Part shown: piece by piece, positions 18,001-45,000 of the stretch
Numbering within the stretch: position 1 is the first letter of the stretch
Layout: every line of letters begins with the position of its first letter
NCBI RefSeq assembly: GCF_026571515.1
Contig: NW_026863344.1
Location: 1-64,000 of the forward strand
Direction of reading: 5' to 3'
Source of the DNA: Ruditapes philippinarum
Lineage: Eukaryota
Length of the DNA: 64,000 bases
Program-made: the position numbers

Positions 18001-21000
18001 GTATCCCGTCTTGCAAGCCTGTTCAATCCAAAGTGTACCATGACTTGCGATTACAAACACTTTACTTGTTACTTCCGTTTACTGTACCGTGTTTGATAGC
18101 CTTTATAATTTAACATGTTCTTTTTTTTGCGATAATAGAAATTGAATAGAATTGTTTATAAAAATGTTCTTATGTTAATGGTCTAATTTGGTTTTACAGA
18201 TCTAACGGTTACAATGATTTTGAGAGTTTTGCTAGCCATATCGCTGTGTGCTGTAGGCCAAGGACTAGACAATGGTTTGGCTTTGACGCCACCTATGGGC
18301 TGGTTGTCATGGGAACGTTATAGATGTAATATCGACTGTGACAATGACCCCGACAATTGTATCAGGTACCATTTTCATTTGCTTATAAGTTTTGAGTTGG
18401 TCAACCGCACAATTATCATCAGGACCATGTGATATTTCTGCTTTACACATAAAGAAATGCATGAGCCAACCCTGCCGTATACGTAAGTCACTGTGAAGTA
18501 GGCTTTCTTGATTAGAATAGTAAGCTTGATTCACAGAATAATCTTATATTCATTTGGACCAAGAATAGTACCCTTTTAAATTAACCTATCTAAATGTATT
18601 GGGTTAAATTTGTGGATGTTATTATCTATGCCTACATAATTTACAGCGAGAATTTGTACATGGCAATGGCTGACGCAATGGTATCGGAAGGTTACAAGGA
18701 TAAAGGTTACGAGTACGTGAACGTAGATGATTGCTGGATGGAGAAAGAACGGGACGCCAATGGTACACTTGTAGCAGATAGAAAACGATTTCCACATGGC
18801 ATGAAATGGCTTGCTGATTACGTATGTATCATTTCCACATTGTGTGTGTTTTTTGTTTGTTTTCATTTTGCTTGATCAGCTTATGGATCCATCACTTGTT
18901 TTGGCCTCACTATTTTTTTTGCAGGTGTATTTGCTTTTACCATATGCTGATAAAAAACAAAGCATTCCAACACTGCATGAAATGACTATTATGATTATTT
19001 ACACAGATGGGTTCATATCACTTTCAAATTACAATGCATTCACGGATTGAATTTCGTTTATCTGAAGTCATTAAAATTTCAATTTTTTGATATCAGATAA
19101 TGGATGTTTTTCTTTTACTTATAAACAGACTTCATGAGTGTGGGTATTATTTCAAAGGGCAAGCATGTTTTATTTTAATTTCATTCATTTGTTTGCTTTC
19201 TTAAATGATATATTTTGGCTATTAGATTTCCCTTTTGCGTTTGCTGTATACTTGTGTATGTTATAATGTCTTAATTGAAACGAAAAAGCATGCATTTGTT
19301 TGTCTATAAATCTAGATGCATGCTAAAGGTTTGAAGCTCGGTATATATGAAGATTTTGGAACCTTTACATGCGGGGGTTACCCTGGAAGCAAATTCTATC
19401 TTGAAAAGGACGCCGACACGTTTGCGTCTTGGGGAATAGATATGGTCAAACTGGACGGATGCTACTCTGATATTGAAGATATGGAATATGGTTAGAAAAA
19501 ATTATTATTGCATTACTTCATGGACTCTGTCCAATTGTCTTATGAAACGTCTTTAGTGGAACATTTAGAATATCGAAATATGCCAAAACGGTGCTTCAGT
19601 TTTTTAAGCTGTTTTTACGTTTTATGATGATCAATATCTTGATGCCAGAAAACCGGACACATGTTTGAGTATACATTGCAACACGACCCCGTGGCACAAA
19701 ACGCTATTACATTTAAAGCTGAACTGCTACTTGGTCTGAATATTTCCAAACTTGAAGTTTTAACTGTTTAATTTTTCGAAACTATTATCATAAATAAAAA
19801 TTATTGCTAAGAAAAGCAAATCAATTTCCATACAATTTATGAACAATCTACATGTATACCTAATTAATAGAACAACAGCAGATGAAAACTAGTCTTCTAT
19901 TTTAATTTGAGAGACGACTAGTTTTGTAAAAGTTTATCCATTTTGAAATTGCAATAATCTGATAATATATATTCTCCGTTATAGATGATAATATGTCTTC
20001 TCTCTTATAGGTTATCCCGCGATGTCATTCTTCTTGAATCAAACTGGGCGTCCAATGTTGTACTCCTGTAGTTGGCCAGCATATGTTGTCTTCTATCAAA
20101 AAATAGTAACTTGAATTTATGATTATACTCTTTAAACTGTATAACATTGTATTACAGTGTTAGCTGATTTAAAATTTCGTTACTTGAAAAAGTTCAGCTT
20201 TCAGTATTATATTTTGCATCAAAATCGGAAAGAAGTTGCAATACAGTATAACCTTTGCAGAGCAGCACCGTTTGGGAGACACAGAATTTGGTTGGTGGTG
20301 AGAAGTGTTGCTCTTGAGGTGTTAATTTTCGAGCAAAGTCTTATTTTGGGAAGAACTGAAAAGTTCTGGTGTTGTAAACAACTAATTGCTCGACAGAAAG
20401 TCGTTGTGCAGAGGTTGAACTGTACTGTTTGAATTCAAGCAATGAGAAAATGATACTAAACTATAAGCAGAATTCATGCAAAAGTTGTAAAAAAAACTGT
20501 TAAGCTGTTGATACGTCCATTTTAAAGCTGCACTTTGGTATGCATTATCTTATGACATGTTTTTTTTGTCAATGAAAATAATGTAAAAGGCTATGAAATA
20601 ATGTTTTATGAAATAATTTATAACACAATATTTTTCTTTGGTTGAGAGTACATGTACTATGAAATACTGGTTGAGAATACATGTCTTATGAAATACTGGT
20701 TGAGAATACATGTACTATGAAATACTGGTTGAGAATACATGTACTATGAAATACTGGTTGAGAATACATGTACTATGAAATACTGGTTGAGAATACATGT
20801 ACTATGAAATACTGGTTGAGAATACATGTACTATGAAATACTAACTAATTTTTCAGCCTGACTATAAGAAGATTGCTAGTTATTGTAACATCTGGAGAAA
20901 CTATGCAGATATACAAGATTCCTGGGACAGTGTTAGAGGGATTATAGAATTCTATGGTAACGATACTGGAAACTTCAGTCTTGTTGCCGGACCTGGAAAC

Positions 21001-42000: not shown

Positions 42001-45000
42001 GAACGGAGAATGAGAAGTATTAGATCTAGTTATCTAAATTTTAACATAATGTTTTTGCAAAATAAATATAATTTTAGTAGAATATTTTTATCACAACTAT
42101 TAATTAATGTGTCAAGTTTAAAAATATTGGGATGAATGTAAAACCTGGATGGAAGAGATTTACGTCTTATGTCATTTAATACGAACATTCAATAAGTAGT
42201 GAAATTCATCACCAATAGCTTGATACGGACATAACGAACAGACCCTATTATTATGATCAATTGTTCTAAATTTACATAAATATTTGCCTATGTCAAAAGG
42301 AAGTACATCTAGATATTTTTCAAAACAATGAGTATTTTTATATGTACGATACACTAAACACTTAGAGGATGTATCAATAGTACTATGCCAATCTTGTAAA
42401 AATTGATCTTGTAGTCTAAGCTTCACAATATTTTTAAAGTGATTAATATTATCTACCATGGAACATTGAAAAGTGGTGGCTACAGTGGCAGCTATACCAA
42501 ACTTTGTACATTTCCTAAGAAATTTGAGCCAATAATCTTTGTGGGTTTTTTTCTCAGCCGGTGTGATTGACTACATGTTTTGACATTATGTGTTTTACAC
42601 GTTATCTTTATGTAATATATTTTTCTGCCCAACGGACTACCAAATTCCTTGATATTTCACACTAGTGGATATATGTACAAGTCATTAAAAAACTGGACGA
42701 TCAACACTTTCAAAAGTCTCTTTTTATTATAGAAATCGCGATTTATACGACTGAAATTAATTGCTAAATAAAATACGCACCCGCAAAGGACCGCCTCCGT
42801 CGTCTAAATTCAGGAAAGCAAAAGCCATTCCTTTAAAATCAAACCCCAACTTCTTTGTCCATATTTCCATAGCACCATTCTGTAAAACAATTCTTCTACA
42901 TAAATCTAACATGTCTAAATTTGTGAGCTTTTAAGAAAATGAATCTTTATATTGAAAATTTAATTTACAAAACTTGGCATGTCGTTGAATTATCTCGAAT
43001 ACAAGTGAGATTTCTTTCATTTCTTTATCTAGATGGTTATTCTGTTAACATACTATGAGAATATCAAATTAATCTACATTTTCAGTGGTCAATAGCTTAC
43101 AACAAATTACCTCAGGACTATAGTTACAGCAAATCAGGTATAAACCCAACGGATTTACCTCCCTTTATAGCCAACGTAAGTCAATGTAAAGATGTTTGAT
43201 TATTGTTGTATATCGTATTCTTGTTACTTTTACTAAATGATTTTCATATCAAATTCTAAAAATGCTTTTGTTCAAACTGATATTACTTTTAGATTATTTA
43301 TCGCTTTAACTGTGGCGTCCTTTATTTATCGTTGTTTTGACACTATGTATAGGTTAGAGTGCATATTGGGTGTTCTTCGTAAATAAGAAAGCTAAAAAGG
43401 AGCGGAGCTTGCGAAGCGACTGTAGCTTTCTTATTTACGAAGAACATCCAATATGCACTCTAACCGGCTTAGTGCTCCGCCCACTTGCGTTTTATAATAT
43501 AAAACGTCCAGTTTATATAAAATCTGTTCTATTAAGATTTGAAACCTGAAAATTTGAAAAATCCTCGTCGGTGATTGGCTTAAAAAAATTGGCGAGAACT
43601 AATTCAAATTTCAGTTGATTTTACGTGATAAACAATATGATATCCGTTCTTCTGTTTCGGAAGACATTCTTTAGTTACAGCAGAAATTCTTCTCTTTACA
43701 TATAGAGCCTTTTGTTACAATCTAAATTCTTAAATGTGTTACAACATTCATTTTTTTTTGTTTCAATAAATTTTTCGTTACCATAGGCCTTGTTTGTTTC
43801 CAAAGACATTCTGATGTTTCTTTTCGAAGACTTTTGTTTCTATAGATATTTGTTTTATATCAGCATACTTACTTTCATAATTCTCTTCCCCATGCTACCA
43901 TTTGCGTCTTGGTTAATTCTAATTAGAATATCACTCTGTAACAAAGCTTTAGCTTCAGGTTTTACGTTCCTCAGATCTACCGAAATCAGTAAAGGCGCTG
44001 ACATGATCGCCCACATGGCCATCTGTACCCGTTGTTGATCGTAACTCAACCCATAGTCACCGACAATGATCTAAAATATGTTTATATCATATTGAGTATT
44101 GTTGAAACACTAGATACGTTTTATTTGCCTGCATTAATGCAAGCATTAACTATCCTATCATCAACAGCTTGTACATTATGCACCAAAGTTTATAACATTT
44201 ATTGACGGATATAAAATCATCTCAAGATATATTAGAAACAAATAATACCTATGATGCTGTTAATGAAGATCAGAATGAAAATAGTGCATTTTTCAGTTTG
44301 CATATAGTCAGCGCTTCTATTTTAGATACGCAAAATAGAATTTATCTTTTTTTCTATTATTTTACATTAGTGAGGGATGCATTTGAAAAATACGTAATAT
44401 TAAATAATTATGATGCGATTATAATTAAAGAGACATCCAAAAGCAAGCGCATTGGGTGCTTTTGATGTTTAATTTAAAGAAGTGAAAGATACATTAACAT
44501 AAATACAAACACTATTTCCTGAAGAATTTCAGATACTTAGCAGTTTATGTACAACGTTTATTGTAACCAAAGTGTTTAATCAACAGTAATATACATGTAT
44601 GTACTATTAGTTTTAAACACAATTCAAAGATTCAATTCCCCTTAAAACCCCATCATCAGCAGTAGCAACAATAACAAGAATAGGACCAACTTACCATGTC
44701 CGGATCATTATAGTTTCCAGGTCCTGCAACAAGACTGAAGTTTCCAGTATCGTTACCATAGAATTCTATAATCCCTCTAACACTGTCCCAGGAATCTTGT
44801 ATATCTGCATAATTTCTCCAGATGTTACAATAACTAGCAATCTTCTTATAGTCAGGCTGACAAATCAAAGGGATATACATTACATATACATTTCTTTTTT
44901 TCCCCTTTTTAACATAGGTCATCTATGATTTTGTTAAAAGAAATATATATCAACTAATGGAACTGAAATGCATGATAGTTAGTTTGAATGACAATAAATG

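What the first reader, a model, noticed from the sequence alone, without database searches (positions are those of the whole stretch)
20857..44856. Exon-by-exon gene conversion between inverted NAGA paralogs, strongest on a catalytic exon
Seen: hand alignment of paralogs A and B gives exon 5 (20857-21018 vs 44856-44695) 160/162 identical with both differences synonymous, exon 2 163/175 (identity runs 17 nt into the intron), exon 3 151/175 (plus ~60 nt of similar upstream intron), exon 6 166/198, and exon 8 only 109/153; most intron sequence is unalignable. Known: exon 5 carries the GH27 acid/base Asp (WRNYADIQD). Inference: purifying selection does not explain near-zero synonymous divergence in one exon, so short ectopic conversion tracts of different ages have homogenised parts of the catalytic domain while the C-terminal beta-sandwich diverged.
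[Added by the scan's program, not by the reader: the finding's places include an assembly gap (unread letters, written N; its length is only estimated) at 36827 to 36961. Whether the letters on both sides are continuous or in frame is not known: test that first.]
Basis: partly seen in the sequence, partly recalled or inferred. Interest (0 to 1): 0.75.

Follow-up and report, generated by a model that had tools for sequence, protein, structure and literature searches.

The report
Gene conversion between clam NAGA paralogs
Two neighbouring, oppositely oriented copies of a clam sugar-cleaving enzyme gene have drifted far apart except for one exon that is almost letter-for-letter identical, most likely because one copy recently overwrote the other there, which is a well-known process seen here in an ordinary form.

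Summary
The window holds two intact, convergent GH27 alpha-N-acetylgalactosaminidase-like genes of 8 coding exons each: A on + (18214-23502) and B on - (46860-41179).

- **Exon 5:** it is 160/162 identical and both differences are synonymous (dS 0.07, against 0.32-2.6 in the other exons; Fisher P=6e-6).
- **Control for protein constraint:** the outlier survives when only codons whose amino acid is invariant in 9 bivalve sequences are counted (2/35 against 52/162, P=7.5e-4).
- **Introns:** they are unalignable except for the two ends of intron 2.
- **Per-exon protein trees:** A and B are sisters in exons 1-3 but not in exons 6-8, so the genes are mosaics.
- **Limit of the protein evidence:** the exon 5 peptide is 100% identical in Mercenaria as well. 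The amino-acid identity is therefore constraint, and only the silent sites argue for conversion.
- **Assembly gap:** it lies between the genes inside a (TCA)n microsatellite, 4.2 kb past B's stop codon, and touches no exon.

The best reading is interlocus gene conversion confined to islands of exon homology. This is a known mechanism with a new example. The decisive test, exon 5 dS against orthologous clam DNA, could not be run here.

The parts
18214..18365 (+). Gene A exon 1 (ATG, signal peptide, start of the GH27 barrel)
   Evidence: Pairs with B exon 1 at 127/152, dS 0.55.
18647..18821 (+). Gene A exon 2 (YVNVDDCW region)
   Evidence: Pfam PF16499 positions 28-85. 163/175 identical to B, dS 0.32. 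A and B are sisters with SH-aLRT 99.
18822..18838 (+). First 17 nt of A intron 2, identical to B 46109-46093
   Evidence: 17/17 identical; the next 43 nt are 17/43.
19255..19315 (+). Last 61 nt of A intron 2, similar to B 45876-45816
   Evidence: 52/61 identical. Local score 77 against a shuffled maximum of 30.
19316..19490 (+). Gene A exon 3 (KLDGC nucleophile motif)
   Evidence: Aligns to chicken NAGA chain 93-146. 151/175 identical to B, dS 0.94.
20011..20105 (+). Gene A exon 4 (YSCSWPAY, NAGA-type Ser/Ala)
   Evidence: 84/95 identical to B, dS 0.51.
20857..21018 (+). Gene A exon 5 (WRNYADIQD, acid/base Asp): the near-identical exon
   Evidence: 160/162 identical to B, dS 0.07, dN 0. Aligns to human GLA chain 183-236.
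21893..22090 (+). Gene A exon 6 (end of the catalytic barrel)
   Evidence: PF16499 positions 230-284. 166/198 identical to B, dS 0.69.
22666..22764 (+). Gene A exon 7 (C-terminal beta-sandwich)
   Evidence: 70/99 identical to B, dS 2.6. Weak PF17450 match, E=0.076.
23338..23502 (+). Gene A exon 8 with stop codon (ends ...AYFDC)
   Evidence: 109/153 identical to B, dS 1.5.
46709..46860 (-). Gene B exon 1
   Evidence: 49/50 identical to P0001.
46110..46284 (-). Gene B exon 2
45641..45815 (-). Gene B exon 3 (KLDGCN: Asn where the 9 other sequences have Tyr)
45172..45266 (-). Gene B exon 4
44695..44856 (-). Gene B exon 5, the near-identical partner of A exon 5
43873..44070 (-). Gene B exon 6
   Evidence: Groups with Mercenaria P0003, SH-aLRT 91.
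42781..42879 (-). Gene B exon 7
41179..41334 (-). Gene B exon 8 with stop codon (ends ...AY, three residues shorter than A)
36827..36961 (.). Assembly gap (N) between the two genes, inside a (TCA)n microsatellite

Best explanation
A and B are old paralogues of a lysosomal-type GH27 alpha-N-acetylgalactosaminidase in a venerid clam (Ruditapes philippinarum or a very close relative). They lie tail to tail, with their exons 5 about 23.7 kb apart. Their introns and the silent sites of exons 7-8 are saturated. Non-allelic homologous repair without crossover (interlocus gene conversion) has copied sequence from one gene to the other wherever enough homology survives, which by now means inside conserved exons only.

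The most recent event covered essentially all of exon 5 (162 nt). Strong purifying selection on the exon 5 protein sequence had kept it similar enough to pair. The tract could not run into the flanking introns, because they share no homology. Older exchange in the 5' part (clearest for exon 2 and the start of intron 2, probably exons 1-3) explains why A and B are each other's nearest relatives there. In exons 6-8 they are not.

Shown: the divergence pattern and its statistics, the mosaic tree signal, and that both genes are intact. Inferred: the repair mechanism, the number and age of events, and the direction of transfer.
For: - **Exon 5 silent sites:** dS is 0.07, against 0.32-2.6 in the other seven exons. 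Synonymous differences are 2 of 30 sites against 102.5 of 213.8 (Fisher P=6.3e-6).
- **Control for amino-acid constraint:** among degenerate codons whose residue is invariant in 4, 6 or 9 bivalve sequences, exon 5 has 2/51, 2/46 and 2/35 differing codons. The other exons have 73/226, 64/198 and 52/162 (P=7e-6, 3e-5, 7.5e-4).
- **Runs test:** the longest run of unchanged silent codons (27) lies in exon 5. It was reached in 1059 of 100000 permutations.
- **Neutral background is saturated:** 6 of 7 introns align no better than shuffled sequence, and pS is 0.65-0.73 in exons 7-8.
- **Identity crosses an exon border:** the stretch from exon 2 position 18 to intron 2 position +17 is 168/175 identical, while the first 17 nt of exon 2 are 12/17. 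Exon-level selection does not predict that.
- **Mosaic phylogeny:** quartet sites for A, B, Mercenaria P0003 and P0002 favour A+B 10:2 in exons 1-3 but 3:9 in exons 4-8 (Fisher P=0.012). Quick ML trees give A+B in e1, e2 and e3 (SH-aLRT 85, 99, 73), B+Mercenaria in e6 (91), a 93-supported split separating A from B in e7, and A and B apart in e8.
- **Overall divergence:** A-B protein identity (339/401) is no higher than A-Mercenaria (346/404), from per-exon sums. The duplication is therefore not young.
- **pS and pN co-vary across exons** (Spearman 0.83, P=0.01), as a reset by conversion predicts.
- **Literature:** conversion is usually reported for exons, diverged introns impede it, and it occurs in inverted adjacent paralogues (passages of PMC3966223).
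Against: - **Strongest protein constraint is on exon 5:** the peptide is 54/54 identical in Mercenaria P0003 and P0002, 52/54 in Mya and 49/54 in Dreissena. This exon is therefore where nucleotide-level constraint would be least surprising.
- **No protein tree signal for exon 5:** there are 0 informative sites.
- **Predicted RNA structure:** the exon 5 RNA folds slightly better than shuffles (z=-1.86; 9 of 200 shuffles fold as well). Exon 6 does not (z=0.31).
- **Tract limits equal exon limits:** identity is 8/9 upstream and 9/11 downstream, then 16/49. Selection on the exon would produce the same picture.
- **Weaker support for older tracts:** the e2 test is P=0.0066 uncorrected for 8 exons. 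The per-exon trees rest on 33-66 residues, and one of the four quartet sequences (P0002) is of unnamed origin.
- **No GC3 rise in exon 5:** GC3 is 0.33-0.37, so there is no signature of biased conversion. This is neutral evidence.
- **Only two sequences:** GENECONV-type tests that use a third sequence could not be run on DNA.
Confidence: 0.8

Rival explanations
1. Nucleotide-level purifying selection on exon 5 itself keeps silent sites unchanged in both copies, with no sequence exchange. Candidates are an RNA structure, dense splicing enhancers, an RNA-editing substrate or another overlapping element.
For: Exon 5 is the most conserved exon at protein level across bivalves. The identity stops within about 10 nt of both splice sites. 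The predicted RNA fold is marginally better than shuffles (z=-1.86, 9/200).
Against: 28 of 30 synonymous sites are unchanged, while invariant-residue codons elsewhere in the same gene differ at 32%. That would be ultraconservation of a kind not expected in a lysosomal glycosidase exon (the expectation is recalled, not tested). There is no Rfam match in 18000-47000 at E<=1. GC3 and composition of exon 5 are ordinary. This rival does not explain why A and B group together in exons 1-3 only.
Confidence: 0.1
2. Assembly or polishing artefact: one exon 5 was overwritten by reads from the other, or a collapsed repeat was placed twice.
For: The window is a scaffold with an N gap. The identical stretch (perfect runs of 44, 86 and 30 nt) is about read length.
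Against: Both copies sit in unique, mutually unalignable introns with intact splice sites, and two real differences are kept. Cross-mapping of reads needs the copies to be nearly identical already. If exon 5 were about 85% identical like its neighbours, reads would map to their own copy (inference). The gap is more than 7 kb from either exon 5.
Confidence: 0.04
3. Few large events rather than exon-by-exon tracts. One old long exchange, or a chimeric origin, replaced the whole 5' part (exons 1-3 or 1-4 with their introns), and its introns have since decayed. A single recent event then hit exon 5.
For: A and B are sisters in e1, e2 and e3 together. Both ends of intron 2 retain similarity, 17/17 and 52/61, as a remnant of a tract that once spanned it. 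dS in e1-e4 is 0.32-0.94, below e7-e8.
Against: dS differs three-fold between adjacent e2 (0.32) and e3 (0.94). Intron 1 and the middle of intron 2 show no residual similarity. In exon 4 the 2 quartet sites pair A with Mercenaria P0003 and B with P0002.
Confidence: 0.3

Closest known systems
Interlocus (ectopic) gene conversion between linked paralogues, including inverted pairs such as the C. elegans hsp16 modules and hsp70-7/hsp70-8 (review PMC3966223, passages read)
   Same: Non-reciprocal homogenisation of part of two linked, oppositely oriented paralogues. The signal is a patch of near-identity in an otherwise diverged pair. Exons are favoured because diverged introns fall below the homology needed.
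   Different: Here the pair is very old (introns unalignable, protein divergence equal to that between genera), and the fresh tract is a single 162-nt exon. The host is a bivalve and the gene a GH27 glycosidase. My two literature searches found no report of conversion in this gene family in bivalves (listings only).
Single-exon conversions between human paralogues, such as the CYP2D7-derived exon 9 in CYP2D6 alleles
   Same: One exon of a multi-exon gene carries the sequence of its neighbouring paralogue, while the flanking exons keep their own.
   Different: Those are segregating alleles between young tandem duplicates with alignable introns. Here nothing is known about polymorphism, and the genes are inverted and ancient.
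Vertebrate alpha-N-acetylgalactosaminidase (chicken 1KTB, human 3H53) and alpha-galactosidase A (1R46), family GH27
   Same: All eight exon peptides of A match PF16499 or the C-terminal domain in collinear order. The KLDGC, YSCSWPAY and WRNYAD motifs align to the solved enzymes.
   Different: This is a clam duplicate pair. Copy B has Asn for Tyr after KLDGC, lacks the last three residues, and carries about twice as many private changes as A (13 against 6). No activity data exist.

Membership tests
GH27 / Pfam Melibiase_2 (PF16499) alpha-galactosidase/NAGA | Significant, collinear match of the catalytic (beta/alpha)8 domain profile | tested here: met
   Exons 1-6 of A match PF16499 positions 1-26, 28-85, 86-142, 146-175, 176-229 and 230-284, each above the 23-bit cut-off. 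The search was done exon by exon, not on a joined protein. B was not scanned separately; it is 84.5% identical to A from per-exon sums.
GH27 / Pfam Melibiase_2 (PF16499) alpha-galactosidase/NAGA | Catalytic nucleophile Asp (KLDGC) and acid/base Asp (..ADI..) | tested here: met
   Exon 3 KLDGC aligns to chicken NAGA chain 138-142. Exon 5 WRNYAD aligns to human GLA WRNFAD at chain 195-200. Both motifs are present in A and B. The roles of these residues (D140 in chicken NAGA, D231 in GLA) are recalled from the structural literature and were not checked here.
NAGA rather than alpha-galactosidase A specificity | Small Ser and Ala in the SCSWPAY loop, where GLA has Glu and Leu | tested here: met
   YSCSWPAY in exon 4 of A and B is identical to chicken NAGA 169-176 and to the engineered GLA entry 3LX9. 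The meaning of the two residues is recalled.
NAGA rather than alpha-galactosidase A specificity | Measured alpha-GalNAc hydrolase activity | not testable with these tools
GH27 C-terminal beta-sandwich (PF17450) | Profile match of the C-terminal domain | tested here: inconclusive
   Exon 7 alone gives E=0.076 (13.7 bits, below the 22.5 cut-off) and exon 8 gives no match. The full-length homologues carry PF17450 as a precomputed domain. The joined exon 7+8 was deliberately not searched.
Interlocus gene conversion | A segment with significantly lower silent-site divergence than the rest of the paralogue pair | tested here: met
   (P from 7.5e-4 to 6e-6). Run-length permutation 1059/100000.
Interlocus gene conversion | Phylogenetic incongruence between segments: paralogues group by species in converted parts and by paralogue elsewhere | tested here: met
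   Met at protein level for exons 1-3 against exons 6-8. Exon 5 itself has no informative sites.
Interlocus gene conversion | Orthologues of other species show ordinary silent divergence in the same segment, which excludes constraint | not testable with these tools

The most novel reading that the evidence does not exclude
The duplication predates the split of the Ruditapes and Mercenaria lineages. In exons 6-7, B shares derived residues with the Mercenaria gene, while A shares states with P0002. The pair has nevertheless kept exchanging sequence ever since. Purifying selection on the catalytic exons holds them above the homology threshold, so conversion can go on indefinitely in small islands while the C-terminal domain and all introns diverge freely. 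This would be a self-sustaining, exon-island form of partial concerted evolution lasting tens to hundreds of millions of years.
Probability: 0.3. Interest if true: 0.45.

Novelty: new member of a known kind. Interest (0 to 1): 0.3.

Why it matters
This is a clean, small example of how gene conversion can persist between very old paralogues. It acts only where selection on the protein has preserved enough nucleotide homology.

The practical consequences are threefold:
- Trees and dN/dS scans of bivalve GH27 or NAGA genes will be misled if whole coding sequences are used.
- The age of the duplication will be underestimated from the 5' and catalytic exons.
- Short-read mapping to the two exon 5 copies will be ambiguous.

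It does not change what is known about gene conversion or about GH27 enzymes.

Tried and rejected
- **Orthologues of each copy:** searching with the most divergent exon (exon 8 of A and of B) returned one protein each, Mercenaria P0003 at 83% and Mya P0004 at 73%. A's own protein and a full-length B are not in that database. Only a partial B-type record was found (P0001, named Ruditapes philippinarum by its source; 345/350 identical to B over exons 1-7).
- **A third NAGA copy in the window:** none. tblastn with P0001, P0003 and P0013 hits only the 16 exons.
- **An RNA family overlapping exon 5:** none in 18000-47000 at E<=1.
- **A GC3 rise as a mark of biased conversion:** not seen.
Both copies end sharply in unrelated flanks and have a hairpin-like end, as a mobile element would. 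Not proven.
- **A and B as haplotypes assembled twice across the gap:** rejected. Introns are unalignable and protein divergence equals that to another genus.
- **Papers on conversion in this gene or species:** none found (listings only).
- **Joined proteins:** All whole-gene figures are sums of per-exon counts.
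Full report
**What is there**

The window (about 32% G+C) is not human. Its best protein matches are clam alpha-N-acetylgalactosaminidase-like proteins.

A self-comparison finds a collinear series of inverted matches. 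They resolve into two convergent genes of eight coding exons each, all with AG/GT borders and matching phases:

| Exon | Gene A (+) | Gene B (-) |
|---|---|---|
| e1 | 18214-18365 | 46860-46709 |
| e2 | 18647-18821 | 46284-46110 |
| e3 | 19316-19490 | 45815-45641 |
| e4 | 20011-20105 | 45266-45172 |
| e5 | 20857-21018 | 44856-44695 |
| e6 | 21893-22090 | 44070-43873 |
| e7 | 22666-22764 | 42879-42781 |
| e8 | 23338-23502 | 41334-41179 |

A encodes 406 codons and B 403. 

- Exons 1-6 of A match Pfam PF16499 (GH27 catalytic domain) collinearly from position 1 to 284. Exon 7 matches the C-terminal sandwich only weakly, and exon 8 not at all on its own.
- Exon 3 carries KLDGC, aligned to chicken NAGA.
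- Exon 4 carries YSCSWPAY, as in NAGA rather than GLA.
- Exon 5 carries WRNYAD, aligned to WRNFAD of human GLA.
- The catalytic roles of these residues are recalled from the literature, not tested here.
- tblastn with three homologues finds no third copy in the window.

**The gap**

The N run at 36827-36961 lies between the two genes. It is 13325 nt past A's stop and 4218 nt past B's stop. (TCA)n microsatellite lies on both sides on the same strand.

No exon or reading frame of either gene is near it. The open frames that the ORF listing draws across it are microsatellite and N. The same repeat on both sides fits one unresolved array, but continuity is not shown. The exon comparisons do not depend on it. 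Only the linkage and relative orientation of A and B do.

**Check of the observation**

| Exon | Identity | dS | dN |
|---|---|---|---|
| e1 | 127/152 | 0.55 | 0.114 |
| e2 | 163/175 | 0.32 | 0.018 |
| e3 | 151/175 | 0.94 | 0.044 |
| e4 | 84/95 | 0.51 | 0.056 |
| e5 | 160/162 | 0.07 | 0 |
| e6 | 166/198 | 0.69 | 0.094 |
| e7 | 70/99 | 2.6 | 0.204 |
| e8 | 109/153 | 1.5 | 0.200 |

dS and dN are Nei-Gojobori estimates with Jukes-Cantor correction.

- The two exon 5 differences are at exon positions 45 and 132, and both are synonymous.
- The first 17 nt of intron 2 are 17/17 identical and its last 61 nt are 52/61 identical. Around exon 5, identity is 8/9 upstream and 9/11 downstream, then falls to 16/49.
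- Apart from the end of intron 2 (local score 77 against a shuffled maximum of 30), the introns score at shuffled level.

**Is exon 5 more than chance or protein constraint?**

- Synonymous differences are 2 of 30 sites in exon 5 against 102.5 of 213.8 elsewhere (Fisher P=6.3e-6).
- Among codons with the same residue in A and B, 2/51 differ in exon 5 against 82/258 elsewhere (P=8.7e-6). The longest run of unchanged such codons (27) is in exon 5 and was reached in 1059 of 100000 permutations.
- The exon 5 peptide is 54/54 identical in Mercenaria mercenaria (P0003), in an unnamed record (P0002) and in the partial Ruditapes record P0001. It is 52/54 identical in Mya and 49/54 in Dreissena. Amino-acid identity of A and B in this exon is therefore plain constraint and no evidence of exchange.
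- I therefore limited the test to degenerate codons whose residue is invariant in 4, 6 or 9 bivalve sequences. Exon 5 gives 2/51, 2/46 and 2/35 against 73/226, 64/198 and 52/162 in the other exons (P=7e-6, 3e-5, 7.5e-4). The anomaly is in the silent sites and survives the control.

**Mosaic structure**

- Heterogeneity among exons remains without exon 5 (chi-square P=0.0014), and without exons 5 and 2 (P=0.018).
- Exon 2 is low (pS 0.26 against 0.52, P=0.0066, uncorrected for multiple tests).
- Its high-identity stretch runs from exon position 18 to intron position +17 (168/175). The first 17 nt of the exon are only 12/17. That boundary does not follow the exon.
- At protein level A-B identity (339/401) equals A-Mercenaria (346/404) and B-Mercenaria (333/401), from per-exon sums.

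Quartet-informative sites for A, B, P0003 and P0002:

| Exon | A+B | A+P0003 | A+P0002 |
|---|---|---|---|
| e1 | 2 | 1 | 0 |
| e2 | 5 | 0 | 0 |
| e3 | 3 | 0 | 1 |
| e4 | 0 | 2 | 0 |
| e5 | 0 | 0 | 0 |
| e6 | 2 | 0 | 3 |
| e7 | 0 | 0 | 3 |
| e8 | 1 | 1 | 0 |

- Exons 1-3 against exons 4-8 give Fisher P=0.012.
- Quick ML trees on nine sequences per exon (the near-duplicate P0001 was left out) put A and B together in e1, e2 and e3 (SH-aLRT 85, 99, 73).
- They put B with Mercenaria in e6 (91), split A from B in e7 (93), and do not join them in e8.
- These alignments are only 33-66 residues long, and P0002 is of unnamed origin, so this is supporting evidence, not proof.

**Mechanism**

The most economical account is interlocus gene conversion between linked inverted paralogues, limited to islands where homology survives.

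- Exon 5 has perfect runs of 44, 86 and 30 nt.
- Its flanks are unalignable. A even carries a 29-nt x 7 minisatellite that ends 14 nt before the exon.
- A tract could therefore cover the exon but not extend beyond it.
- A review of Caenorhabditis paralogues states that conversion is usually reported for exons, that diverged introns impede it, and that it occurs in head-to-head and tail-to-tail pairs (passages of PMC3966223).

The repair pathway, the donor, and the number and dates of events are inferred, not shown.

**Rivals**

- **Nucleotide-level constraint on exon 5.** It is favoured by the exon's extreme protein conservation, by tract limits that coincide with the exon, and by a marginal RNA-fold z-score (-1.86, 9/200; exon 6 gives +0.31). 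There is no Rfam match and no unusual composition. It does not explain the exon 1-3 grouping.
- **Assembly or polishing artefact.** This is unlikely, because each copy is embedded in unique introns and two differences are kept. I cannot test it.
- **Fewer, longer events.** One old 5' exchange plus one recent exon 5 event fits some of the data (both ends of intron 2 are conserved). It does not fit the three-fold dS difference between e2 and e3.

**What stayed unchecked**

- Supplementary files were not consulted.
- Two literature searches found no report on conversion in bivalve NAGA genes (listings only). A third search supplied the review (listing).

**Verdict**

It is a good but ordinary case of a known process.

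Noticed in passing
14788-15771 (+) and 48330-49313 (-): A 990-bp inverted pair at 96.8% identity lies upstream of A (2.4 kb) and of B (1.5 kb), in the same relative orientation. Both copies end sharply in unrelated flanks, and one end forms a roughly 150-nt palindrome. This looks like a non-autonomous mobile element, though a further conversion or duplication remnant is not excluded.
   Followed up: partly
20639-20842: A 29-nt x 7 minisatellite (97% matches) in intron 4 of A ends 14 nt before the exon 5 acceptor. B has nothing like it.
   Followed up: partly
45641-45815 (-), 41179-41334 (-): Copy B has Asn where all 9 other bivalve sequences have Tyr right after the KLDGC nucleophile motif. 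It lacks the last three residues (FDC) and has 13 private amino-acid changes against 6 in A. B seems to evolve faster, whether relaxed or changing function.
   Followed up: partly
18647-18821 (+), 46110-46284 (-): In exon 2, A and B share residues found in none of the other homologues aligned (the B-type record P0001 set aside): Val in VNVDDCW, Met in HGMKW and Ala-Met in ADAMV. These are derived states next to the substrate-binding Asp pair.
   Followed up: no
8433-8816 (-) and 13154-13618 (+): Two small HSP20/alpha-crystallin ORFs lie in divergent orientation, about 73% identical over 299 nt. This is a second inverted paralogue pair in the window.
   Followed up: no
27731-28120 (-): An ORF with a tubulin C-terminal domain (E=3.5e-21) lies between the two NAGA genes. 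Whether it belongs to a complete tubulin gene was not examined.
   Followed up: no
51573-53660 (-): A 695-aa uninterrupted ORF carries RING, B-box and NHL repeat matches, so it is TRIM-NHL-like.
   Followed up: no
18200-18213 (+), 46861-46874 (-): Both genes have a good AG acceptor a few bases upstream of the ATG. This suggests an untranslated first exon further upstream, which was not located.
   Followed up: no
56080-57543; 24280-24512 and 55589-55808: The first region is a block of degenerate tandem and inverted repeats with a period of about 60 nt. The second pair is a dispersed repeat of about 230 nt at 74% identity, probably a short interspersed element.
   Followed up: no
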